A DNA stretch of 64,000 nt from Dehalococcoidia bacterium (GCA_965248495.1 CBDFJL010000003.1:924852-988851), one strand, 5' to 3'. Counted from the first letter of the stretch, positions 4,562 to 61,139 are shown. Translations and numbers: made by a program. Notes: generated from the letters alone by a model not told the origin.

Positions 4562-4742
4562 GCCCTCGATGCTGACAGCAGAGAAGCCGCGGGAAAACGT
4601 CCGAAAGTACCACCCCATGGGTGGGCCAGGTGTGACATAGGGATGCCGCCGCAACCGTCACGCAGGATTGCGTGCCAGCCCCCCGTAGGATTGCAGGCGC
4701 GCGGCCTTTCTTGGCGTGGGTCGGCCCGCTAGCCTGCGATGC

Positions 4743-6026
4743 ATGGGAGTGCGCCTGGTCGGCCTACTGATGCTCATCGCCGTCGCAATGCTGGTGAGCG
4801 CGTGCGGCAGTTCCTCGGACGGCGTGCGGGTGTCGGTGGCCGAAGCCGCGCTAACCAGCGAGCCGACACCGCCCGCGCCCGCAACGCCGACAGCGACTGC
4901 GAGCCCGATCGCGACCGCAATCGCGACGCCCACCCCCGCGCTGACCCCGGCACCAATCGGCGCGCCGATACCCACGCCGACACCCAAGCAGGCTGGCGAC
5001 GCATCGGCACCTTCGACGCCGACACCTCTCGCGCCAACGCCAACGCAGGCGGCGACGGCGGCGCCTGCGGCGAATCCGACGCCGACGGCCACCATCGCAC
5101 CGCGCTACACGAACGGCGGAGGGGGCGGCTTCGTCGTGCTCGACGACCCCGCGTTCGTCCCCGCCTCGCGGGCCGGCCACGTCGCCGACGGCGACCTCGT
5201 CCTCGGCTACAACGGAGGGGCGCAGGCACGGGCCTACCCGGTGTCGATGATGTGGCTCCATCACATCGTGAACGACACGGTGCTTGGCGATCCGCTGCTC
5301 GTCACCTACTGAATACTCTGTAGATCGGGGGTCGGGTACGACCCCGTGTTGGAGAGTGGCGAGCGGGTCCGCTTCGACCTTCTCGGCCTGTACAAGGGCG
5401 TGTTCCTGATGCGTGACCGTGCCACCGGCTCGGTCTGGGCCCACCTCGACGGCTTCGCGTCCCAGGGCCCGCTGGCAGGGCAGCGCCTCGACTTCGTGTC
5501 CCTGCCGCAGATGACGTGGGGCGAGTGGCGGCAATCGCATCCCGACACGCTGGTGCTCGATGCGAACACGCCGTGGAGCGCCAACTACGGCGACCCCGGC
5601 CAGTTCTCCGATCCGACGCTGGCCAAGTTCGCCGACAATCGTCTGCCCTGGGACGCGCTGGTGGTTGGGGTCGAGGCCAACAGCGCCTACATGGGCTTTC
5701 CGCTCGCCGCGCTGACGGGCGTCGGTGGCTACACCAACACGACGGTGGGTGGCGTGCCCGTGCTCGTGACCTACGACGCTGCAACGCAGACGGGCATCGC
5801 CCACAGCCGCGTCGTCGAAGGCCAGGCGCTGGATTTCTCGTTAGCACCGGGCTTCTTCGGCCGCCTAACCCTCCAGGACGCGCAGACGGGGTCCAAGTGG
5901 GACGCGAGCGGGACGGCCATCGAGGGCCCGCTGAGCGGGACCCAGCTCACCTTCGTCCCGTCCTTCATCTCGGCGTGGTACGGCTGGTCGGCCTACCACC
6001 CGCAGACCGACCTGTTCGACGGCTAA
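4743..6026 (+). CDS. DUF3179 family lipoprotein, predicted selenoprotein (UxxC), Sec codon at 5310-5312
   Basis: Track ORFs 4716..5312 and 5346..6026 share one frame and are separated only by TGA. Read-through gives ...MWLHHIVNDTVLGDPLLVTY-U-ILCRSGVGYDPVLESGERVRFDLLGLYKGVFLMRDRATGSVW.... Lipobox MGVRLVGLLMLIAVAMLVSAC follows ATG 4743, then a PT-rich linker. Confidence 0.75.
5326..5346 (+). promoter_or_regulatory. Candidate SECIS-like hairpin for DUF3179 copy 1
   Basis: Stem GGGGUC/GACCCC (5328-5333 with 5340-5345), loop GGGUAC. The stem begins 15 nt after the UGA. Confidence 0.45.
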
Positions 6027-6550
6027 CCCGGCAGTATCTCGAAGGCGTTGAGCACGCTGGCGATCATCGAGTAGTAGCCGACCGTCGCCGTCAGCTCGAC
6101 GACCCCCACGACGCCGAAGCGCCCCAACGCGGCGTCGAAGGTCGCCTGGCTGACGCGCTTGTCCCGCAGCAGCTCGCGGGCGTAGGCGATGGACGGCCTG
6201 AGCTCGGTCGGCAGCTCGTCGAGCCCGGCCCGCGCGTCGACGAGTGCGATGGTGGCGTCCGGGACACCGAGCCGGGCGGCGATGCCCTTGTGCGCGGCCA
6301 TCTCGTAGGCACACTCCAGCTCGGCGGCCGTCGCCACGATGGTCAGCTCGCGAACGTCGTCCGGCAGCGACGACTCGAGGCGCACGTAGTCGCCAACGCC
6401 GGCGATGCGGCGCGTGAGCTCCGGCACGCTCATTAGCGCGGCGAAGGGCCCGCGCATGGCGCCGCCGCGGGTGGCCGCGATCGCATCGAACGCGGCGTGG
6501 TGCTCGGCGGCGACGCTGTCTCGTTCGGTGATCATGGGTACGCGTGGCAT
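6023..6550 (-). CDS. Carboxymuconolactone decarboxylase (AhpD-like) family protein
   Basis: MPRVPMITERDSVAAEHHAAFDAIAATRGG...TAAELECAYEMAAHKGIAARLG shows the CMD-type E-C-x-x-E-x-x-x-H region. GGGAG lies 7 nt upstream of ATG 6550. Confidence 0.8.
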   Translation of the reverse strand: MPRVPMITERDSVAAEHHAAFDAIAATRGGAMRGPFAALMSVPELTRRIAGVGDYVRLESSLPDDVRELTIVATAAELECAYEMAAHKGIAARLGVPDATIALVDARAGLDELPTELRPSIAYARELLRDKRVSQATFDAALGRFGVVGVVELTATVGYYSMIASVLNAFEILPG

Positions 6551-6659
6551 TGGCTGCTCCCGTGTGCTGGAGTCGGCTGGTGCGCGGCATGATAGACCCG
6601 CTAACGCTCGATGTGGGCGGTGCGCTAGTCTTGGGCCACCGAACGCGGAGGAAGCCGTC

Positions 6660-7769
6660 ATGAAAGAAATCAAGATCGACCGGAGCAAGTCGCTGGTGGA
6701 GGAGCCCGGCAAGGGCCATAACCGATTCCACCCGGATATCGAAGCGGTCATCGAGGTCGACGAGGGCGAGGAGGTCGTCATCGAGACGCGCGCCGCCGCC
6801 GACAATCAGATCACCAGCGCGAGCACCGTCGATGCGCTGAGCGGCACCGACCCCCGACGTCCGCACCCGCTGACCGGCCCCGTGTACGTGAAGGGGGCGT
6901 CGCCGGGCGACCTGCTGGAGATCGAATTCCTCGACATCGTCCCGGCCGACTGGGCCTTCACCGGCATTCGGCCGGGGCGGGGCTACCTGCGGGACCACTT
7001 CCACGATCCGTTCCTCGCGATCTGGGAGCTCCGCGACGGCTGGGCGACGAGCAAGCAGGTGCCGGGGGTGCGCGTGCATGGCGCGCCCTTCACTGGCGTA
7101 TCCGCGGTGGCGCCCTCCCGCGAGCAGCTTGTCGAATGGACGCGTCGCGAGGCGGTGCTGGCGGCCGAGGGTGGGCTGGCCATGCCGCCGGACGCGCGAA
7201 GCGCCGTGCCGTCCGCGGAGCCCATGGCCAGCGAGGGCCTGCGGACCATCCCCCCGCGTGAGAACGGCGGCAACATGGACGTGAAGCAGATGACCAAGGG
7301 GTCGCGGCTGCTGTTGCCGGTCAACGTCGAGGGCGCGCTCTACTCCACCGGCGACGCCCACTTCGCCCAGGGCGACGGCGAGGTGTGCCTCCAAGCGGTG
7401 GAGATGGACGCGACGGTCGCCGTCCGGTTCCGCGTCCTGAAGGGGGAGGCGGAGCGGCACAACATCCGCTGGCCTCGGCTGGCGCACTCGACGTACTTCA
7501 CCGATCCACGCTTCGCCGTCCCCGAGCGCTTCATCGCCACCATGGGCATGCCGATCCGCGCTGACGGCTCCAACGCCAGCGAGGACCTGAACCTCGCCTG
7601 CCAGAACGCACTGCTCCAGATGATCGACCTGCTGGGCGAGCGCGGGTTCAGCCGCGAGCAGGCCTACGTCATCTGCAGCGTGGCGGTGGACCTCAAGATC
7701 AGCCAGGTGGTCGATGTCCCCAACTTCATCGTGAGCGCTGTGCTCTCGGAGGACATCTTCGGCGACTAG
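6660..7769 (+). CDS. Acetamidase/formamidase family protein
   Basis: MKEIKIDRSKSLVEEPGKGHNRFHPDI...HPLTGPVYVKGASPGDLLEIE...GNMDVKQMTKGSRLLLPV...STGDAHFAQGDGEV matches FmdA/AmdA family signatures. GGAGGA RBS is present. Confidence 0.9.
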   Translation: MKEIKIDRSKSLVEEPGKGHNRFHPDIEAVIEVDEGEEVVIETRAAADNQITSASTVDALSGTDPRRPHPLTGPVYVKGASPGDLLEIEFLDIVPADWAFTGIRPGRGYLRDHFHDPFLAIWELRDGWATSKQVPGVRVHGAPFTGVSAVAPSREQLVEWTRREAVLAAEGGLAMPPDARSAVPSAEPMASEGLRTIPPRENGGNMDVKQMTKGSRLLLPVNVEGALYSTGDAHFAQGDGEVCLQAVEMDATVAVRFRVLKGEAERHNIRWPRLAHSTYFTDPRFAVPERFIATMGMPIRADGSNASEDLNLACQNALLQMIDLLGERGFSREQAYVICSVAVDLKISQVVDVPNFIVSAVLSEDIFGD

Positions 7770-27261: not shown

Positions 27262-27530
27262 GCGCACTTTCAATAAGTTTCCGCAACGAAGGGAAGTAGT
27301 AGGGGACTCCTCGTCCAAGCGAGCCGGCGGTTGGTGAAAGGCCGGTGGCGTCAGGGCCCCGAACTCGTCCCGGAGCGGCCGACCTGAACGTTTTGAGCGG
27401 CTCAAAGCGTGTAGGGTAGGCGGAGCGCGCCGATACCGCGCCTAACGAAGCGCCTCCCAGCGGGCTGGGGGGAACGAGGGTGGTACCGCGGGCCTGGCCC
27501 GTCCCTTAATTGAGGGGCGGGTTTTTTTGT
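27262..27530 (+). promoter_or_regulatory. T-box leader, probable Leu (CUC) specifier, with intrinsic terminator
   Basis: T-box sequence AACGAGGGTGGTACCGCGG at 27473-27491. Stem I elements include the AGCGA bulge, a GGTGAAAG distal loop, and a specifier loop with AGUAGUA opposite GAA-CUC-G (CUC at 27364-27366). The terminator cccgtccc-ttaattga-ggggcggg plus T7 lies at 27497-27528. Confidence 0.8.
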
Positions 27531-27571
27531 CTGCGGATTAGGGCGGGGTAGATGAGAACGAGGCTGACGAC

Positions 27572-29278
27572 ATGCGGCTAACCGGTGGGCAGATGGTATG
27601 CGAGGCGTTGGTCCGCGAAGGCGTGGACCTCGTGTTCGGCCTGCCCGGCGGCGCTATCCTGCCGCTCTATCAGACGCTGCCAGAGTATCCGCAGATACGG
27701 CACGTCTTGGTTCGCCACGAGCAGAATGCGGGCCACGCGGCGGACGGCTACGCTCGGGCCACCGGCAAGGTCGGCGTCTGCATCGCAACGTCGGGGCCCG
27801 GCGCCACCAACCTCGTGACCCCGCTGGCCACGGCCATGATGGACTCCGTCCCGGTCGTCGCCATCACTGGGCAGGTGCCCCGCGCGGCCATCGGCAGGGA
27901 TGCGTTCCAAGAGGTCGATACCACCGGCATCACGTTGCCCATCACCAAGCACAACTACCTGGTCATGCACGCGTCCGAGTTGCCGCAAGTGCTCAAGGAG
28001 GCGTTCCACATCGCGCGAACGGGGCGGCCCGGGCCGGTGCTCATCGACATCCCCCGCGACGTGCAGGCCGAGCGCGCTGAGTTCGACTACCCGGAGAACG
28101 CCGACATGCGCTCCTACCGGCCGACGCTCGAAGGGCATGCGCAGATGATCAAGCGCGCGGCGCGGCTCATCCGCGAGTCGCAGCGCCCGCTCATTCTTGC
28201 CGGCCACGGCGTCCTGATTTCCGGTGCGTCCGCCGAGCTTCGCGAGCTCGCCGAGAAGGCGCAGGTGCCGGTCATCACAACGCTGCTCGGCATCAGCGCG
28301 TTCGACGAGGGCCACGTGCTCTCGATGGGCATGCCCGGCATGCACGGGATGGCCTATACCAATTGGGCCATCGAGCGCTCCGATCTGCTGATCGCGATCG
28401 GCATGCGATTCGACGACCGGGTCACCGGGCGCATCAGCACCTTTGCGCCCAACGCGAAGGTGGTTCACATAGATGTGGACCCCGCCGAGGTCGGCAAGAA
28501 CGTGCGCGTGACCGTGCCCATCGTCGGGGACGCGAAACGTGTGCTGCATGTGCTCGTCCGCGAGACGGAGCCCGCGACACACCCCGCCTGGCTGCACGAG
28601 ATCGACGAGCTGCGCACCGAGCATCCGTCGGACCGGCTCCGCGAGACCGATAAGCTGTTGCCCCAGCACGTCGTCCGCGAGCTTTCTGACGTCACGCGGG
28701 GCAATGCCATCGTCGTCACCGGCGTGGGCCAGCACCAGATGTGGGCTGCGCAGCACTTCCGCTTCCGCGAGCCCAACAGCTGGCTGACGTCCGGCGGGCT
28801 CGGGACCATGGGTTACGAGGTTCCCGGCGCTATGGGCGCGGCCATGGGCCGACCAGACAAGGTGGTCTGGAGCATCGCCGGTGACGGCGGTTTTCAGATG
28901 ACCATGTCGGAGCTGGCGACGATCGTGGAGAACAAGGTGCCGGTGAAGTTCGTCATCCTGAACAACAACAACCTGGGGCTTGTAAGACAGCTGCAGGATC
29001 TCTTCCACGATGGCTCGCGCGTCGCGTCCGGGTACACGGGAAACCCCGACTTCGTGAAGCTGGCCGAGGCCTACGGTATCTGGAGCACTCGCGTCACCGA
29101 ACGCTCGCAGGTGCGGGACGCCATAGAAGCGGCGATGGCCCACGACGGACCCGCGCTGATCGACTTTAAGGTGGAGCCGGATGAGAACGTCTACCCACAC
29201 GTGCCCGCCGGCGAAAGCGTGGCCGAGATGATCGAGGGGCAGCCGCTGCCCGATGGGGAGGGCGCATGGCAACGATAG
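27572..29278 (+). CDS. ilvB: Acetolactate synthase large subunit
   Basis: ThDP-enzyme motifs are present (GGLGTMGYEVPGAMGA...GDGGFQM...NN), with full-length AHAS-like sequence. Confidence 0.95.
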   Translation: MRLTGGQMVCEALVREGVDLVFGLPGGAILPLYQTLPEYPQIRHVLVRHEQNAGHAADGYARATGKVGVCIATSGPGATNLVTPLATAMMDSVPVVAITGQVPRAAIGRDAFQEVDTTGITLPITKHNYLVMHASELPQVLKEAFHIARTGRPGPVLIDIPRDVQAERAEFDYPENADMRSYRPTLEGHAQMIKRAARLIRESQRPLILAGHGVLISGASAELRELAEKAQVPVITTLLGISAFDEGHVLSMGMPGMHGMAYTNWAIERSDLLIAIGMRFDDRVTGRISTFAPNAKVVHIDVDPAEVGKNVRVTVPIVGDAKRVLHVLVRETEPATHPAWLHEIDELRTEHPSDRLRETDKLLPQHVVRELSDVTRGNAIVVTGVGQHQMWAAQHFRFREPNSWLTSGGLGTMGYEVPGAMGAAMGRPDKVVWSIAGDGGFQMTMSELATIVENKVPVKFVILNNNNLGLVRQLQDLFHDGSRVASGYTGNPDFVKLAEAYGIWSTRVTERSQVRDAIEAAMAHDGPALIDFKVEPDENVYPHVPAGESVAEMIEGQPLPDGEGAWQR

Positions 29279-56085: not shown

Positions 56086-56673
56086 CTACAAGATCTCGTC
56101 GATGAGCTCGTTCATCTTGCTCTTGGTCAGCAGCCCGGCGAAGCGGCTCTTGACCACGCCGTCCTTGGTGATGAAGTAGGTGGTCGGCATGCCGAGGATC
56201 TGGTACGAGCGAACGACGTTCTCATCGAAGGTGGTCCCTACCGGGTAGTCGACACCGAGCTCGCGGATGAGCTCCAGCCCTTCCGCTCGCGTGCCGAGCA
56301 GCTGGAACGGCCCGATGTCGATGCCGAGCAGCGTGACCTCGGCACCCCGCGCCTCGTAGACCTCCTGGAAGTCGGGCATCTCGGCCCGGCACGGCGGGCA
56401 CAGCCCAGCCCAAAAGTTGAGCACGAGCGGCTTGCCGGTGTGTTCGAGGATCGCCGTCAACGTGACTTCGTCCCCGCCCAGGATGTCGTCGCCCTGGTAC
56501 GTGGAGATGGTGAGGTTGGGCACGCCAAGGCTTATGCCATCGGCGGCCGGCTCGCCCCCATCGCTCCCACCACAGGCGGTTGCGATGAGCGCGACCAGCA
56601 GGAATACGGAGGCCATTGCCGTCATGCGGCCGCGTGGCCTTCGCGCTCGCGCCATTCGGATAAGACTTGGCAT
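56086..56673 (-). CDS. TlpA/ResA-like thiol:disulfide oxidoreductase lipoprotein (CPPC)
   Basis: Lipobox LIATAC. Thioredoxin fold with LVLNFWAGLCPPCRAEMP. It lies 44 nt downstream of the DUF3179 gene on the same strand. The start could be 56673, 56655 or 56625. Confidence 0.85.
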   Translation of the reverse strand: MPSLIRMARARRPRGRMTAMASVFLLVALIATACGGSDGGEPAADGISLGVPNLTISTYQGDDILGGDEVTLTAILEHTGKPLVLNFWAGLCPPCRAEMPDFQEVYEARGAEVTLLGIDIGPFQLLGTRAEGLELIRELGVDYPVGTTFDENVVRSYQILGMPTTYFITKDGVVKSRFAGLLTKSKMNELIDEIL

Positions 56674-56717
56674 CGGATCGCTACCTCTTCGAGTTTAGGA
56701 ACCAAACAGGGCGGGCA

Positions 56718-57839
56718 CTAGGGGGTCGCTTCCGCCCCGCCGTACAACCCGGTGTCGGGGTGGAAGTCGGTCCACGCGAACCAGAAGGACACGAACGAGG
56801 CCAACTGCGTCAGGCGGGTCCCCGCGAGCTCGCCGTCCTTGGCGACCCCGCTGACGCGCGTCCACGTCGAGCCGGTCTGAGTATCGCGCATCTCCAGGTT
56901 ACCGACGGGAGTGAAGCTCAACACCCGCCCATCGGCCAATGTGCGGTCGAACACGGCCTGCGTGCCCGCCTGTGGATCGAGGGTGACGACGATTTCTCGG
57001 CCGGAGTAGCTGTCGTTCACGATCTGCTCTTCCGCCAGCGCGCGGAACCCGTACGCCCGGGCCTGGTCGCCCCAGTCGAGCCCAACCACAAGCGTCTTCG
57101 TCGGCAGCCGGTCGTCGGGTACCGCTTCGCCGAGGATGCCGGCTGAGCCGCTTTGATAGTAACTCCGGTAGGGGTCGTCCCCGCTGCCGCGGCCGAAGCG
57201 CCGGTCCAGCAGCTTGGTGTCCGGGTGCCGTTCCACCCAAGCTGCCCACGTGGTCAGCGGGGCGGGGATCAGTTCGAGGCGCTCCCCTGCCAGCTCGCCC
57301 TCGACGGCCTCCTGGAGGAATTGACTCCAGAAGGTGTCGGTCTGGTGGTCGTACATGACGACGGCGTTGCGGATCAGCTTGCCGGATACGCCGAAGGTGA
57401 GCTCCCTCCCGGCGACCTCGCGGGCAAAGACCATGCCCGTAAAGCAGAGCGGTCACCACGTGACCATGACTGGTCTCCCGCCAACCGTATCGTTGACGAC
57501 TTCGTGACTGCTCAGGTGCGCTGTGGCGTAGGCCCGGTGGTCGCCGTTGATGGACAGCCCGATGACGAGCTCTTGCGGCAGCATCTGGGACGCCGCTACC
57601 GCGCCGTCGACGAACATCGGGTCAAGGATCGCTGGGATCGCGTCCTTCCCGAGAACCGTCCGGATCTCGAACTCGCGTAATGGCGTGGACGCGTCGGCGC
57701 CGGCACTGGCCGCGGGGAGGGCCACGGTGGTACTGCGGTTGAGCAGCCGCCAAACGGGGCTGCCGGGAATCACGGCGAGGAATGCCAATACGACGACGCC
57801 CATGACTACGGTCGCTGCGATGGTGGTGCGGCTCAGCAA
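56718..57839 (-). CDS. DUF3179 family membrane-anchored protein, predicted selenoprotein (UPLC), Sec codon at complement(57453..57455)
   Basis: Track ORFs 57453..57839 and 56718..57434 are in the same frame. Read-through gives ...HLSSHEVVNDTVGGRPVMVTW-U-PLCFTGMVFAREVAGRELTFGVSGKLIRNAVVMYDHQTDTFWSQ.... N-terminal TM anchor; TTG start. Confidence 0.75.
57421..57439 (-). promoter_or_regulatory. Candidate SECIS-like hairpin for DUF3179 copy 2
   Basis: On the minus strand, CGGGCA-UGGUCUU-UGCCCG forms a 6-bp stem with a 7-nt loop containing GGUC. It begins 13 nt after the UGA. Confidence 0.5.
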
Positions 57840-58038: not shown

Positions 58039-59826
58039 CTAGACCGCGCACTCACCCTCGCCGCGCTCCAGCTTGTAGAGCACGGTCTTGCCCCAGTCCA
58101 TGTAGTAGTCCAGCGTCTCTTTGCCCAGTGGACCGATCTCGCGGAACTCCGAGAGGATGGCCTCAAAAGCGTCATTGCCCGTGCGGTCGACGAAGTCGTT
58201 GAACTCCTCACCATCTCGTCGCTGGTCGCGGTAGTAATCGAGGAGCCGCCGAATGGCACTCGGGACGTGTTTGGAAGGCACCTTGGCCTTGACTCGCTGG
58301 CCGTATTTGAGGCCGCCCCGCTCGTAGGCGCCGCCAAGGTAGACCTCGAAAGCGGGGATCTGGTTGCCCCCGGGCCCTTTGATGGAGGCTCCCTGGAAGC
58401 CGATGTTGGCCAGATGGTGCCTGCCACAGCCGTTGGGGCAGCCGGACGCCTTGATGTGCAGCTTCTTGATGGCCGGGTCTTCCAACAGGTCGTCCCAGTC
58501 CATCAGCGCATCCGTGACCGCCCGGTTCAGGCCCATGGAGGACGTGATGCCGAGCTTGCAGCTATCCGTGCCGGGGCAAGACGTCATGTCGGTGATCGAG
58601 TAGACCTCGGCCTCCGCCAGTCCGATGGCGCCAAGCTCGCGCCATACGGCGTAGAGAGCCCCATCGGGAATCCAGCGCAGCGCCAGGTTCTGCTCGGCGC
58701 TGAGCCCGAAGCTGGCCGAGCCGTGGTCGCGGGTGATCTGGGCGATGGCCCGGAACTGGTCCGCCGTCAGGTCCCCTCGCGGAACCTTCACGTACACCGC
58801 GTTGTAGCCCTCCTGGATTTGCGCGACGACGTTGGTCTTCCGCCAGAGAAGAAACTCCTTGTCCCCGGAGCCCTCCCCGGTGTCCGCCAGGGGAGCCGGA
58901 GGCGTCTCTTGAGCATTTGCCATCAGCGGGCTGGGGTCGAAGCTCCCCTCGTTGGCCCACGGCTTCTCCAGCTCGTCCTCGACCATCTGCCTGACGGCGT
59001 CGATGCCACGCCGGTGAATGAGTACTTTGATCCGCGCCATCATCTTGTTCTGACGCAGCTCGTCGGCGGCATCGAACACCCGGAGGATCGCCTCGGTAAC
59101 CCGCAGGTAGTCCTCGACCGCGACGAACTCGTAGAGCGTTTCGGCGTTCTTGGCGAGGATCGAGGTGCCTCCGCCGACGACCATCTTGAAGCCCCTGTGT
59201 TCGACCCCGTCAATCTCTCGCACGCGCGCCACGAAGCCGAGATCGTGCATCCCCACGATGGCAGGGTCGTGCTCGCCGGAGGAGAAGGCCGTCTTGAACT
59301 TACGCGGCATCGATTGGGCGATGGGGTGCCGCACGAACTTGCGGACGTACGCCACAAGGTAGGGCGTGATGTCAAAGGCCTGCTCCGGGTCGATGCCCAT
59401 CATCGGGTCAGCGTTCACGTTGCGGACCGTGTTCCCGCACGCCTCGCGGGTGGAGAGCCCGGACTCGCCGAGGATGCGCATCACGTTGGGAGCGTCCTCC
59501 AGCGCCACGTGGTGGTACTGGATGTTCTCCCGGGTCGTGATATGCCCCATCTTGAGGGGAGCAAGCTCGTCCGCAATGACCGCCAGCGCGTCCATCTGGT
59601 CTGCCGTTCCCAGCCCTCCGGGCAGCTTGACGCGCACCATTTGCGCATCGGGCTGGCGCTGTCCATAGATGCCCCGCCGCAGACGCCACGGGGTGAACTG
59701 CTTGTCGTCGATCTCACCCGCCCGGAAGCGCTTGGCCTCGACCTCGAACTCCTCGGCCTCGACCGCCAGGTACGGGATGACGCCCTTGGTGTTGTCGACT
59801 AGGCCGGCGTTGCGTGCAATGGCCAT
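58039..59826 (-). CDS. sir: Sulfite/nitrite reductase hemoprotein (ferredoxin-dependent type)
   Basis: Two NIR/SIR repeats are present. The siroheme-[4Fe-4S] Cys cluster reads TSCPGTDSCKLG...ASGCPNGCGRHH. GGAGGG RBS precedes ATG 59826. Confidence 0.9.
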   Translation of the reverse strand: MAIARNAGLVDNTKGVIPYLAVEAEEFEVEAKRFRAGEIDDKQFTPWRLRRGIYGQRQPDAQMVRVKLPGGLGTADQMDALAVIADELAPLKMGHITTRENIQYHHVALEDAPNVMRILGESGLSTREACGNTVRNVNADPMMGIDPEQAFDITPYLVAYVRKFVRHPIAQSMPRKFKTAFSSGEHDPAIVGMHDLGFVARVREIDGVEHRGFKMVVGGGTSILAKNAETLYEFVAVEDYLRVTEAILRVFDAADELRQNKMMARIKVLIHRRGIDAVRQMVEDELEKPWANEGSFDPSPLMANAQETPPAPLADTGEGSGDKEFLLWRKTNVVAQIQEGYNAVYVKVPRGDLTADQFRAIAQITRDHGSASFGLSAEQNLALRWIPDGALYAVWRELGAIGLAEAEVYSITDMTSCPGTDSCKLGITSSMGLNRAVTDALMDWDDLLEDPAIKKLHIKASGCPNGCGRHHLANIGFQGASIKGPGGNQIPAFEVYLGGAYERGGLKYGQRVKAKVPSKHVPSAIRRLLDYYRDQRRDGEEFNDFVDRTGNDAFEAILSEFREIGPLGKETLDYYMDWGKTVLYKLERGEGECAV

Positions 59827-59851
59827 GGTGGACCCTCCGGTCTTGAACAAT

Positions 59852-59900
59852 AAAAAAGCTGCACCCCGGTCCTTTGGCTTCGTAGCCAGCGGGGCGCAGC
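59852..59900 (-). terminator. Leader terminator (attenuator) about 25 nt upstream of the sir start codon
   Basis: On the minus strand, GCUGCGCCCCG...(inner UGGC/GCCA)...CGGGGUGCAGC is followed by UUUUUUAUUGUU. Confidence 0.6.
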
Positions 59901-59923
59901 GCCTAGTGGTTCAGGCGTGCACC

Positions 59924-59959
59924 CTACAGGGGACAGGGACAGCAGCTCAAGAGCGCCAT
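59924..59959 (-). CDS. Cys-rich leader peptide MALLSCCPCPL (11 codons)
   Basis: Reads atg gcg ctc ttg agc TGC TGT ccc TGT ccc ctg tag. The ATG lies 9 nt after the predicted -10 hexamer, so the transcript is essentially leaderless. The stop codon abuts the antiterminator arm GGGUGCA. Confidence 0.55.
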   Translation of the reverse strand: MALLSCCPCPL

Positions 59960-59967
59960 ACAGGGCC

Positions 59968-59997
59968 AAGCTAACACCCGTCGGAGCGGATTGTCAA
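59968..59997 (-). promoter_or_regulatory. Predicted sir promoter
   Basis: On the minus strand, TTGACA (59997-59992), an 18-nt spacer, then TGtTAGCTT (hexamer 59973-59968). Confidence 0.5.
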
Positions 59998-60018
59998 CGC
60001 GCGAGGTCGACAATCCGC
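59986..60018. promoter_or_regulatory. 10-bp perfect inverted repeat GCGGATTGTC-N13-GACAATCCGC overlapping the sir -35
   Basis: The arms lie at 59986-59995 and 60009-60018, in the divergent region between sir and the 60082 gene. Confidence 0.45.
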
Positions 60019-60081
60019 CAGGCCACGGCCTGGGGCACGGGGCTCCGGTGATAGACTGGCGCAGCCCGGATTGGGGGTGTC

Positions 60082-60438
60082 GTGCGGCAGGTCGCCTTCC
60101 TCGTTGGCTTGTTCGGTGCGGCGCTCGCGCTGTTGGGCTCGCTGGTGGCCATATTCGTTGGCGCACTCGGCCTGGTCACCGGCGGGGGGTTCGATGCGGG
60201 GGACCAGGCGTTATTCGGGTTGCTGGCCGTCGGTGCGGCATTGGTTGGCGGCCTCGGCGCGGTCGTCTCGCTCTTTCGGCCTCGGGCCGGTGCGCTGATG
60301 CTTCTGGGCTCGGCGGTGGCCGGGCTCCTCGCGATCCCGACGTACTACATCTTCGGAGCGGTGCTGCTGTTGGTCGGGGCCTTCTTCGCGTACCGCGCAG
60401 ACAGGGAGGCGGGCCGCAGTATCATGGGCGAGCGATGA
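60082..60438 (+). CDS. Small integral membrane protein (four TM, Gly/Ala/Leu-rich)
   Basis: MRQVAFLVGLFGAALALLGSLVAIFVGALGLV.... ATGA overlap with the following chdC-like gene. Confidence 0.6.
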   Translation: MRQVAFLVGLFGAALALLGSLVAIFVGALGLVTGGGFDAGDQALFGLLAVGAALVGGLGAVVSLFRPRAGALMLLGSAVAGLLAIPTYYIFGAVLLLVGAFFAYRADREAGRSIMGER

Positions 60439-61139
60439 CCACCGACGTGACCCCGCAGATCGTGCGCTACGCTTTCTACAAGGCTGACCCGGCCTGGCGC
60501 CGGCTACCGGAGGACGCCCGCTCGCGCAGCAAACGGGAGTTTGCCAGCGTCCTGGCCGAGCTCGAGTCACAATTGACGCTGCGCACCTACAGCCTGATGG
60601 GGATGCGCGCCGACGCCGAGCTGATGGTCTGGTCCGTCAGTGCCGACCTCGAGGGCCAGCAGGTCCTGGCCACCAGCTTGGCCCGCACCGAGCTTGGCGC
60701 CTACTTGGACCTGACCCACTCCTTCCTGGCCATGACGCGGCGCTCCAGGTACATCGACGACCATGGGCACGATGGGCACGAAGGGCCGGAGAGCCGCACG
60801 CGCATAAAGCCCATGGACCGGCCGTACCTGTTCGTCTACCCGTTCGTGAAGACCCACGACTGGTACCAGCTCTCCGGCGAGGAGCGCCAGCGGATGATGG
60901 AGGCGCACTTCACCATCGGCCACCTCTACCCCGAGGTGAAGATTCACACCTCCTACTCGTACGGGCTGGACGACCAAGAGTTCGTGCTCGGGTTCGAGAC
61001 GTCCGAGCCGCAGCGCTTTCTGGAGCTGGTGATGGAGCTGCGGCACGCTGAGCAGCGCCCGTACACCGAGCGGGACGTGCCCATCTTCACCTGCCTGCTG
61101 AAGACCGTCGAGGAGGCGCTCGACGACCTGGGGGGCTGA
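60435..61139 (+). CDS. chdC: Chlorite dismutase family protein, probable coproheme decarboxylase (HemQ/ChdC)
   Basis: YAFYKADPAWRRLPED...YLFVYPFVKTHDWYQLSGEERQRMMEAHFTIG...YSYGLDDQEFVLGFETSEP. Confidence 0.85.
   Translation: MTTDVTPQIVRYAFYKADPAWRRLPEDARSRSKREFASVLAELESQLTLRTYSLMGMRADAELMVWSVSADLEGQQVLATSLARTELGAYLDLTHSFLAMTRRSRYIDDHGHDGHEGPESRTRIKPMDRPYLFVYPFVKTHDWYQLSGEERQRMMEAHFTIGHLYPEVKIHTSYSYGLDDQEFVLGFETSEPQRFLELVMELRHAEQRPYTERDVPIFTCLLKTVEEALDDLGG

What the first reader, a model, noticed from the sequence alone, without database searches (positions are those of the whole stretch)
4743..6026. Second DUF3179 paralog with the same trick: UILC, lipoprotein form
ORFs 4716..5312 and 5346..6026 share a frame, and only TGA 5310-5312 intervenes; I checked every codon from 5313 to 5345. 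Read-through gives ...MWLHHIVNDTVLGDPLLVTY-U-ILC-RSGVGYDPVLESGERVRFDLLGLYKGVFLMRDRATGSVWAH.... The UGA is in the same column as in the paralog at 56718..57839. The hairpin GGGGUC-GGGUAC-GACCCC begins 15 nt after the UGA. Two diverged paralogs keeping UGA at the identical catalytic column argues strongly against sequencing error or pseudogenisation. This copy has a lipobox (LVSAC) and a PT-rich linker.
Basis: partly seen in the sequence, partly recalled or inferred. Interest (0 to 1): 0.8.

Follow-up and report, generated by a model that had tools for sequence, protein, structure and literature searches.

The report
Selenocysteine DUF3179 lipoprotein gene, mis-split
This is one intact gene for an exported lipoprotein of the DUF3179 family whose in-frame UGA is most likely read as selenocysteine; the family and its lineage are already known to use selenocysteine, so it is a sound but ordinary find that public gene calls have cut in two.

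Summary
Window 4743..6026 (+) is one reading frame interrupted only by TGA 5310-5312, and the read-through product is a full DUF3179 domain (Pfam E=4e-58). The TGA lies in the first position of a U-x-x-C motif, where full-length homologs have Cys. In 65 related loci that column is TGA in 55 (Dehalococcoidia/Chloroflexota) and TGC/TGT in 10 (mainly Armatimonadota). A 7-bp hairpin with loop GGUA (5328-5345) starts 15 nt after the TGA. It meets all four published bacterial SECIS criteria, is paired in 99.1% of cells across 47 sequences, and shows three compensatory pairs. Cys-codon homologs lack it. Both halves are under similar purifying selection. The second window paralog (56718..57839, minus strand) has U in the same column. 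Lipobox and Pro/Thr-rich linker are conserved in orthologs. DUF3179 is already listed as a selenoprotein family (UxxC/T), and Dehalococcoidia are documented as selenoprotein-rich, so this is a new member of a known kind. Not shown: Sec machinery in the source genome (none in the window; a relative has a Sec-containing SelD beside its copy). Function remains unknown; models suggest a weakly Rieske-like fold with His, Sec and Cys probably clustered.

The parts
4743..6026 (+). Complete selenoprotein gene: 427 codons, ATG 4743 to TAA 6024-6026, with Sec190 encoded by TGA
   Evidence: Single frame with one internal TGA. Pfam DUF3179 scores 197.5 bits across residues 133-422 and spans the TGA. The syntenic ortholog L001 has the same architecture.
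4743..4805 (+). Lipoprotein signal peptide MGVRLVGLLMLIAVAMLVSA|C; the lipobox VSAC is at 4794-4805
   Evidence: Read from the sequence. A lipobox after a hydrophobic segment recurs in most TGA-form orthologs.
4806..5096 (+). Pro/Thr/Ala/Ser-rich low-complexity linker, residues 22-118
   Evidence: Translation. PTAS fraction is 0.75 here and 0.5-0.8 in orthologs.
5097..6023 (+). DUF3179 domain, made of two tandem beta-rich repeats; only the first carries U-x-x-C
   Evidence: Pfam. Internal duplication seen by tblastn. AF2 models of the closest Cys homolog have pLDDT 85 and 93.
5259..5261 (+). His173, the invariant His of the H-[H/E]-[IV]-[IV]-N-[D/E] motif, 17 residues before U
   Evidence: Invariant in the N-repeat alignment. 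It is inferred to lie next to U190 at the base of one beta-hairpin, from the model's secondary structure.
5310..5312 (+). In-frame TGA, read as Sec190, first position of U-I-L-C
   Evidence: Aligns with Cys in full-length homologs. The column is TGA in 55 loci and TGY in 10.
5319..5321 (+). Cys193 (TGT), partner residue of the UxxC motif
   Evidence: Invariant in all Sec and Cys forms.
5328..5345 (+). SECIS-like hairpin core: stem 5328-5334 / 5339-5345, loop GGUA 5335-5338. It lies inside the coding sequence for G-V-G-Y-D-P, and a possible lower stem spans 5315-5357.
   Evidence: MFE -13.8, z=-3.3. 99.1% of cells paired in 47 sequences, 3 of 7 pairs compensatory. Cys forms pair only 4.7 of 7 positions on average.
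56718..57839 (-). Second DUF3179 paralog, membrane-anchored. Sec-TGA is at 57453-57455 (W-U-P-L-C) and the hairpin CGGGCA-UGGUCUU-UGCCCG is at 57421-57439.
56086..56673 (-). TlpA/redoxin-type thioredoxin lipoprotein (CPPC), 45 nt downstream of paralog B and probably in the same operon
   Evidence: Pfam AhpC-TSA, Redoxin and Thioredoxin hits; sequence.

Best explanation
Window 4743..6026 is one functional gene for a membrane-anchored, extracytoplasmic DUF3179 lipoprotein. Codon 190, UGA, is decoded as selenocysteine.

Mechanism of decoding (inferred from the standard bacterial pathway). The hairpin 5328-5345, lying 15 nt downstream inside the coding sequence, acts as a bacterial SECIS. It would recruit SelB-GTP-Sec-tRNA(Sec) to the ribosome paused at UGA, so that translation continues into the remaining 237 codons.

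The protein. Sec190 and Cys193 form a U-x-x-C pair at the end of a beta-strand. Invariant His173 is probably beside them, in the first of two Rieske-like beta repeats. The most likely role is a selenol/thiol-based site on the outer face of the membrane. That site could be a redox-active selenylsulfide or a soft-metal (for example Cu) binding site.

What is shown: gene integrity, the Sec/Cys pair, the conserved SECIS-like structure, and the export signals. What is inferred: Sec rather than another residue at UGA, SelB dependence, and the biochemical role.
For: 1. Single in-frame TGA, and DUF3179 spans it.
2. Cys at that column in full-length homologs P0050, P0068, P0106, P0111 and P0116.
3. About 100 of the 120 best database homologs are roughly 225-aa fragments that start just after this column, so gene callers stop at the same TGA.
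4. DNA of 65 loci read at the column: 55 TGA and 10 TGY.
5. All four bSECIS criteria from PMC13188914 Fig. 2A are met: 4-nt loop with 7-bp stem, G at loop positions 1-2, 22 nt from UGA to the loop, and MFE -13.8.
6. Across 47 distinct sequences, 99.1% of stem cells are paired against 35-69% in slid controls. Three pairs show double changes. C24:G31 becomes U:A in 8 sequences, concerted every time.
7. Synonymous stem positions are frozen (Gly third base is G in 31/32 Sec forms against 1/9 Cys forms), while the loop third base varies. Cys forms pair 4.7 of 7 positions with MFE -6.7, against 6.9 of 7 and -14.5 for Sec forms.
8. dN/dS is 0.18-0.59 on both sides of the TGA against seven orthologs.
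9. The second paralog has U in the same column and its own hairpin with a GGU-containing loop.
10. TGA still ends about 7 of 41 ordinary genes in the window, so the code is standard.
11. Relative L044 has a SelD with TGA at the Cys17 position, 2.6 kb from its TGA-form DUF3179.
12. Literature: DUF3179 is a listed UxxC/T selenoprotein family. Dehalococcoidia UBA1141, the source of L027, has 49 selenoproteins.
13. Lipobox and linker are conserved.
14. Fold and site. TlpA-like neighbour of paralog B.
Against: - No selA, selB, selD or tRNA-Sec is in the 64-kb window. The SelD search did not recover a protein from the source contig among the 120 hits listed, so Sec competence of this particular genome rests on indirect evidence.
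- No protein-level evidence exists for Se incorporation.
- The Gly-Val...Asp-Pro codons are inherently partly complementary (Cys forms already pair 4.7 of 7), so part of the hairpin comes free with the coding sequence.
- Paralog A has no conserved gene neighbour.
- The Rieske-like fold matches are statistically weak (best E 5e-3 and 2.7e-2, none at or below 1e-3), and Pfam detects no Rieske signal. The functional part of the statement is therefore a hypothesis.
Confidence: 0.88

Rival explanations
1. The UGA is recoded through the same hairpin, but with cysteine or another residue rather than selenocysteine. One route would be a non-canonical tRNA with a UCA anticodon delivered by SelB. Another would be near-cognate read-through.
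For: The data here establish recoding plus a SECIS-like element but not the chemical identity of residue 190. Sec machinery was not found for the source genome. The paper I checked for it, PMC5424206, does not cover it.
Against: Relative L044 encodes a SelD that is itself TGA-containing at the catalytic position, next to its DUF3179. Most of the SelD homologs listed in the search with L044's SelD are N-terminally truncated in the same way. Dehalococcoidia are documented as selenoprotein-rich. There is no evident reason to maintain UGA plus SECIS across 55 loci merely to insert Cys, when 10 homologs simply use TGY.
Confidence: 0.05
2. The TGA is a true stop. The locus then yields a truncated N-terminal lipoprotein (residues 1-189) and possibly a separate C-terminal protein from GTG 5346, as public gene calls have it.
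For: Gene callers annotate exactly this split (P0001 is 226 aa; L001 and L003 have split calls). A GTG exists at 5346.
Against: The split cuts the first beta-repeat of one Pfam domain in the middle. It also removes the invariant CxxC partner Cys193 and the conserved GVG[FY]DP segment from both products, yet that 11-codon stretch between TGA and GTG is conserved in frame in 55 loci. The C-terminal piece would lack any export signal. Downstream 'start' codons differ between orthologs: P0005 and P0008 start inside the motif.
Confidence: 0.04
3. The gene is a pseudogene, or the TGA is a sequencing or assembly error in place of TGC/TGT.
For: MAG assemblies do contain errors. L045 has a 1-nt deletion in the G-run of the hairpin.
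Against: The same TGA occurs in 55 independent assemblies and in two or three paralogs of this genome. There are no other stops or frameshifts. dN/dS is below 1 on both sides. There is RNA-level covariation specific to TGA forms.
Confidence: 0.02
4. TGA is reassigned genome-wide to a sense codon in this lineage (as in code 4 or code 25), so no special element is needed.
For: TGA is an infrequent stop in the window: 7 of about 41 genes, against TAG 23 and TAA 11.
Against: TGA does terminate well-supported genes. Only the two DUF3179 genes show coding signal on both sides of an in-frame TGA. Related loci, and even the Cys-form Armatimonadota loci, have similar TAG-rich stop usage. The TGA-specific hairpin argues for local recoding.
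Confidence: 0.01

Closest known systems
DUF3179 (PF11376) selenoprotein family, motif UxxC/T. It is catalogued in PMC9312934 and PMC13188914, which attribute it to Zhang & Gladyshev 2007 (PMC1976440, Olavius delta-1 symbiont).
   Same: Same Pfam domain. Sec occupies the first position of UxxC. Cys-containing homologs exist. There is a SECIS-like hairpin directly downstream.
   Different: This copy comes from a high-GC Chloroflexota/Dehalococcoidia genome, not a deltaproteobacterium. It is a lipoprotein with a long Pro/Thr linker. It is one of two copies in the window and probably three in the genome. The Sec form is near-universal in its clade (55 of 65 loci sampled). I could not check whether these Dehalococcoidia copies are already in BSepDB.
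Bacterial SECIS consensus (bSECISearch model as summarised in PMC13188914 Fig. 2A); the archetype is E. coli fdhF
   Same: It lies in the coding region immediately 3' of UGA. It has a small apical loop starting with G-G/U, a 7-bp GC-rich upper stem, and 22-nt spacing.
   Different: It is a very compact, almost sequence-invariant element (GGGGUCG-GNUN-CGACCCC) that doubles as the codons for Gly-Val-Gly-Phe/Tyr-Asp-Pro. SelB binding has not been tested.
Rieske-fold domains: Rieske ferredoxins such as 5bok, 3gce and 2i7f, and the cluster-less NirD 3c0d/2jo6
   Same: The top structural matches of both models are almost exclusively Rieske-fold proteins, with TM 0.47-0.58 on the target. The spacing of His...(17)...[U/C]xxC resembles CxH...(about 17)...CxxH.
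   Different: No E-value is at or below 1e-3. Pfam gives no Rieske hit. The ligand set is His + Sec/Cys + Cys, not 2 Cys + 2 His. The domain is duplicated, and the second copy has no ligands. This is a resemblance, not membership.
Extracytoplasmic TlpA-type thiol:disulfide reductases and their CxxC/CxxxC clients (for example ScoI and CoxB in Bradyrhizobium; from my own knowledge)
   Same: Paralog B is followed by a TlpA/redoxin lipoprotein with CPPC. Both proteins are predicted to sit outside the membrane. That arrangement is typical of a reductase and its Cys-pair client.
   Different: The pairing is seen only for paralog B. Paralog A has no conserved partner. No biochemical data exist.

Membership tests
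Bacterial selenoprotein gene | In-frame TGA aligned with Cys in homologs (Sec/Cys pair) | tested here: met
   Full-length homologs have VTYCSVC, VTYCPLC or ISYCPLC at the column. 10 loci have TGC/TGT there.
Bacterial selenoprotein gene | TGA-containing orthologs in other organisms, with conservation on both sides of the TGA | tested here: met
   55 loci have TGA. dN/dS is 0.18-0.59 both upstream and downstream.
Bacterial selenoprotein gene | bSECIS: 3-9 nt apical loop, 4-16 bp upper stem, G in the first two loop positions, 16-37 nt from UGA to the loop, MFE <= -7.5 kcal/mol (PMC13188914 Fig. 2A) | tested here: met
   Loop GGUA (4 nt), 7-bp stem, 22-nt spacing, -13.8 kcal/mol. Covariation; contrast with Cys forms.
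Bacterial selenoprotein gene | selA, selB, selC (tRNA-Sec) and selD present in the same genome | not testable with these tools
   None is in the window. The source contig's length fingerprint is absent from the 120 SelD hits listed out of 8000 that passed the cut-off. Indirect support: a Sec-containing SelD sits next to the DUF3179 of relative L044, and the lineage is documented as Sec-rich.
Bacterial selenoprotein gene | Selenium actually incorporated at the UGA position | not testable with these tools
   Needs 75Se labelling or mass spectrometry.
Pfam PF11376 DUF3179 | Profile score above the gathering threshold over the whole domain | tested here: met
   197.5 bits against a cut-off of 27; profile positions 7-292 of 292.
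DUF3179 selenoprotein subfamily (UxxC/T) | Sec at the first position of the conserved UxxC/T motif | tested here: met
   U-I-L-C here. It is U-x-x-C in all 55 TGA loci. Motif as listed in PMC9312934 and PMC13188914.
Bacterial lipoprotein | N-terminal hydrophobic signal followed by a lipobox [LVI][ASTVI][GAS]C | tested here: met
   MGVRLVGLLMLIAVAMLVSAC. Conserved in most orthologs. Processing by Lgt/Lsp is not testable.
Rieske [2Fe-2S] domain | CxH...CxxH cluster ligands and a sequence-profile match | tested here: not met
   The motif is H[HE]...[U/C]xxC. No Pfam Rieske hit even at E<=10.
Rieske [2Fe-2S] domain | Rieske beta-fold | tested here: inconclusive
   Foldseek top hits are nearly all Rieske-fold proteins (TMt 0.47-0.58), but the best E-values are 5e-3 and 2.7e-2.
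Thioredoxin-fold CxxC/UxxC oxidoreductase | Thioredoxin fold around the UxxC | tested here: not met
   The model is an all-beta repeat, no thioredoxin-family Pfam hit was found, and no Trx-fold structure is among the Foldseek matches.

The most novel reading that the evidence does not exclude
DUF3179 is a duplicated, Rieske-derived extracytoplasmic domain whose former cluster-binding loops now hold His173, Sec190 and Cys193. In Dehalococcoidia, selenocysteine would then serve as a direct ligand of a metal ion or Fe-S-type centre on the outside of the membrane, rather than as a redox selenylsulfide. Only a few selenoprotein families are known in which Sec ligates a metal, and this would add an exported, lipid-anchored one. 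It would also give the whole DUF3179 family a function.
Probability: 0.12. Interest if true: 0.65.

Novelty: new member of a known kind. Interest (0 to 1): 0.3.

Why it matters
- **Annotation.** Public gene calls split this gene, and about 100 of its 120 closest database relatives, into fragments at the Sec codon. Recognising the UGA as Sec restores a complete exported protein.
- **Scale.** Sec is the normal state of this DUF3179 clade in Dehalococcoidia/Chloroflexota, a globally abundant group: 55 of 65 loci sampled.
- **A useful RNA example.** The SECIS is compact and almost invariant, it doubles as coding sequence, and it shows clean compensatory changes. That makes it a good marker for finding these genes and a tidy example of dual RNA and protein constraint.
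- **Biology.** An exported, lipid-anchored U-x-x-C protein present in two or three copies per genome points to a selenium-dependent activity at the cell surface. What that activity is remains unknown.
- **Limits.** None of this changes what is known in principle. The family was reported as a selenoprotein in 2007, and the lineage is on record as selenoprotein-rich.

Tried and rejected
1. **Finding the source genome's Sec machinery.**
   - tblastn of E. coli SelA, SelB and SelD against the window found nothing.
   - ARAGORN and Rfam found only tRNA-Ser(UGA anticodon) and a T-box.
   - A search with the Dehalococcoidia SelD from L044, using contig length 2,642,258 as a fingerprint, did not recover the source among the 120 hits listed out of 8000 that passed the cut-off. 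This is uninformative, not negative.
   - The look-up of encoding contigs has no record of P0001 or P0026.
2. **L042 'tRNA-???' (914-1004) as a possible tRNA-Sec.** No Rfam match; dropped.
3. **Other selenoprotein genes in the window.** A scan for TGA-split same-frame ORF pairs found only the two DUF3179 genes with a coding signature on both sides.
4. **A conserved operon partner for paralog A.** Clustering of all ORFs within 3.5 kb in 50+ loci gave only DUF3179 itself and its antisense shadow ORFs.
5. **Solved structures by sequence.** None at E<=1.
6. **Modelling the window protein itself.** I modelled the closest full-length Cys homolog, P0050, instead.
7. **Sequence-level Rieske relationship.** No Pfam hit even at E<=10.
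8. **UGA-to-Cys recoding literature.** PMC5424206 turned out to be about SepRS/SepCysS, not UGA recoding.
9. **Low TGA stop usage as a sign of codon reassignment.** Rejected, because relatives and the Cys-form lineages show similar usage and TGA ends real genes.

Full report
**1. The observation**

The sequence is as described. ORFs 4716..5312 and 5346..6026 lie in one frame, and translating 4716-6026 gives a single internal stop, TGA at 5310-5312. With that codon read through, the 427-residue product from ATG 4743 matches Pfam DUF3179 at E=4.3e-58 (197.5 bits; profile 7-292 of 292). The match spans the TGA.

The N-terminus MGVRLVGLLMLIAVAMLVSAC has a lipobox, and a roughly 97-residue Pro/Thr/Ala-rich linker follows it.

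It reads ...GGRPVMVTW-U-PLCFTG.... The two proteins are 33% identical over the whole domain, and the two TGA codons fall in the same ungapped column.

I scanned the window for same-frame ORF pairs separated by one TGA. Only these two genes have a real coding signature on both sides.

**2. Sec/Cys pair and distribution**

I searched with the domain (U replaced by C) and obtained 210 homologs at E<=1e-10. About 100 of the best 120 are fragments of roughly 225 aa covering only the 72% of the query that lies after the TGA. The few full-length homologs have Cys at the column: VTYCSVC, VTYCPLC, ISYCPLC. This is the pattern expected when gene callers stop at a Sec codon.

The DNA confirms it. The syntenic ortholog L001 (CMD and FmdA genes downstream, as in the window) and L003 both carry TGA in that column. 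In a scan of one genome per species, the column could be read in 65 loci (counting L001-L003 and the two window copies). It is TGA in 55 and TGC/TGT in 10.
- The TGA loci are Dehalococcoidia, Chloroflexota and SAR202 MAGs, plus one Acidimicrobiales bin.
- The TGY loci are mainly Armatimonadota.

The nearest named relative, Ca. Australimonas brisbanensis, is Chloroflexota; Dehalococcoidia.

A third fragment from a contig of the same length as the source (P0026, 52% identical, not in the window) suggests a third copy in this genome.

**3. The RNA element**

A 15-nt spacer after the TGA is followed by GGGGUCG-GGUA-CGACCCC (5328-5345). Its MFE is -13.8 kcal/mol with z=-3.3. In its 45-nt context the MFE is -23.0 kcal/mol, and none of 200 shuffles folds as well.

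It meets all four constraints of the published bacterial SECIS model (PMC13188914 Fig. 2A):
- a 3-9 nt loop and a 4-16 bp stem;
- G in the first two loop positions;
- 16-37 nt from UGA to the loop (22 nt here);
- MFE at or below -7.5 kcal/mol.

Across 47 distinct TGA-form sequences the seven stem pairs are formed in 99.1% of cells, against 35-69% when the 3' arm is slid by 1-3 columns. Three pairs show changes on both sides. In particular, C24:G31 becomes U:A in eight sequences and never changes on one side alone.

The element is also the coding sequence for Gly-Val-Gly-Phe/Tyr-Asp-Pro, so part of the complementarity comes free with the protein. Cys-codon homologs pair at 4.7 of 7 positions on average (MFE -6.7), against 6.9 of 7 (MFE -14.5) in TGA forms. 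The synonymous sites show the difference. The Gly third base in the stem is G in 31/32 TGA forms and 1/9 Cys forms, whereas the Gly third base in the loop varies freely.

Paralog B has its own hairpin, CGGGCA-UGGUCUU-UGCCCG (-9.7 kcal/mol, z=-3.1), with GGU in the loop.

**4. Constraint, and exclusion of trivial explanations**

Nei-Gojobori estimates against seven orthologs give dN/dS of 0.18-0.49 upstream and 0.20-0.59 downstream of the TGA. dS is near saturation, so these are rough, but the two halves behave alike.

TGA terminates about 7 of 41 well-supported genes in the window, so the code is standard. The TAG-rich stop usage is shared by relatives and by the Cys-form lineage.

Sequencing error or pseudogenisation cannot explain the same TGA in 55 assemblies together with TGA-specific RNA covariation.

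**5. Sec machinery**

The window has no selA, selB, selD or tRNA-Sec. I could not reach the rest of the source genome, so this refutation test stays open for this genome.

The indirect evidence is good:
- In relative L044, a SelD homolog lies 2.6 kb from the TGA-form DUF3179 and itself has TGA at the catalytic Cys17 position (HCAG-U-AAKF).
- Most of the 120 SelD homologs listed in the search with L044's SelD are N-terminally truncated in the same way.
- BSepDB lists Dehalococcoidia bacterium UBA1141 (the source of L027) with 49 selenoprotein genes and another Dehalococcoidia MAG with 46 (PMC13326102).

**6. What the protein might do**

No PDB entry is related by sequence.

I built AF2 models of the closest full-length Cys homolog, P0050 (41% identical). 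The whole protein gives pLDDT 85 and pTM 0.81; the N-repeat alone gives pLDDT 92.8. The models show two tandem beta-rich repeats, which agrees with the internal duplication seen by tblastn.

Foldseek returns almost only Rieske-fold proteins: Rieske ferredoxins, NirD, PetC3 and the arsenite-oxidase small subunit. TM is 0.47-0.58 on the target, but no E-value is at or below 1e-3. Pfam sees no Rieske signal.

The invariant residues of the first repeat are His173, Asn177, Tyr189, U190, Cys193 and an Asp. His173 precedes one strand, and U190 ends the partner strand, of a single beta-hairpin in the model's secondary structure. They are therefore probably adjacent; this is an inference, because I could not read the coordinates. 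The second repeat has lost the CxxC.

Paralog A has no conserved neighbour. Paralog B is followed by a TlpA/redoxin lipoprotein with CPPC. That arrangement is typical of an extracytoplasmic reductase and a Cys-pair client.

I therefore favour a selenol/thiol site on the outer face of the membrane. It could be a redox-active selenylsulfide or a soft-metal site, and I cannot decide between the two.

**7. Comparison with what is known, and verdict**

DUF3179 already appears in two catalogues of prokaryotic selenoprotein families with motif UxxC/T (PMC9312934 and PMC13188914). Both attribute it to the Olavius symbiont study (PMC1976440).

The finding is a correct identification of a new, unannotated member of a known selenoprotein family in a lineage known to be Sec-rich. 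Four modest additions go beyond the catalogue entry:
- near-fixation of the Sec form in the Dehalococcoidia clade;
- the compact, covarying SECIS that doubles as coding sequence;
- the conserved lipoprotein architecture;
- the weak Rieske-like fold lead.

Interest is moderate to low (0.3). The most novel reading still open is Sec as a metal or cluster ligand in a Rieske-derived exported domain (probability about 0.12).

Noticed in passing
window 56086-57839 (-): Paralog B of DUF3179 has an N-terminal membrane anchor and Sec-TGA at 57453-57455. A TlpA/redoxin-type thioredoxin lipoprotein (CPPC) starts 45 nt downstream of it. This may be an extracytoplasmic redox pair.
   Followed up: partly
source genome, outside the window (protein P0026): A third DUF3179 fragment (227 aa, 52% identical to copy A) comes from a contig of the same length, 2,642,258 bp. 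It starts just after the U column, so the genome probably has three Sec-type DUF3179 genes.
   Followed up: partly
L044 1385-2428 (-): The SelD homolog (42% identical to E. coli SelD) has an in-frame TGA at the catalytic Cys17 position (HCAG-U-AAKF). It lies 2.6 kb from that MAG's TGA-form DUF3179. Most of the 120 SelD relatives listed in the database search are N-terminally truncated, so Sec-containing SelD seems common among them.
   Followed up: partly
protein database hits P0002-P0105: About 100 of the 120 closest homologs are annotated only as the post-TGA fragment of roughly 225 aa. This is a systematic mis-annotation of the clade in public gene calls.
   Followed up: yes
L045 ~5187-5230; L027 ~2275-2320; L010: There are three exceptions within the SECIS. 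L045 has a 1-nt deletion in the G-run that shifts the frame, which may be a long-read homopolymer error. L027 has a broken stem (GVGFFP). L010 has one unpaired position (Pro to Thr).
   Followed up: no
L057 (uncultured Acidimicrobiales bin), U column at ~5190: A TGA-form DUF3179 with the same hairpin (GGGGUCG-CGUU-CGAUCCU) occurs in a bin labelled Actinomycetota. This is either horizontal transfer or mis-binning.
   Followed up: no
window, whole (about 41 genes): Stop-codon usage is TAG 23, TAA 11, TGA 7 (plus one Sec-TGA) in a 66.9% GC sequence, so TGA is unusually rare. Related Dehalococcoidia loci (TGA 35%, TAG 44%) and the Armatimonadota loci show a similar TAG-rich pattern, so it is probably a lineage trait and not linked to recoding.
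   Followed up: partly
window 27277-27509 (+): A T-box leader (Rfam 93.1 bits, right at the gathering score of 93) lies immediately upstream of a 578-codon ORF at 27542-29278. That ORF is presumably an aminoacyl-tRNA synthetase or a related gene.
   Followed up: no
window 6023-6805 (-): A CMD (carboxymuconolactone decarboxylase/AhpD-like) family gene lies convergent to copy A, and L001 has the same synteny. CMD/AhpD-like proteins are themselves a known selenoprotein family, but I saw no in-frame TGA here.
   Followed up: no
window 58039-61139: Beside paralog B there is a divergent pair: a ferredoxin-type sulfite/nitrite reductase (NIR_SIR, 603 aa, minus strand) and a chlorite-dismutase-family protein (410 aa, plus strand).
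   Followed up: no
DUF3179 domain, window 5097-6023: The domain is an internal duplication. tblastn aligns its C-terminal half to its N-terminal half, and the model shows two similar beta repeats. Only the first repeat keeps His...U/CxxC; the second reads VTYDAATQTG at the equivalent place.
   Followed up: partly
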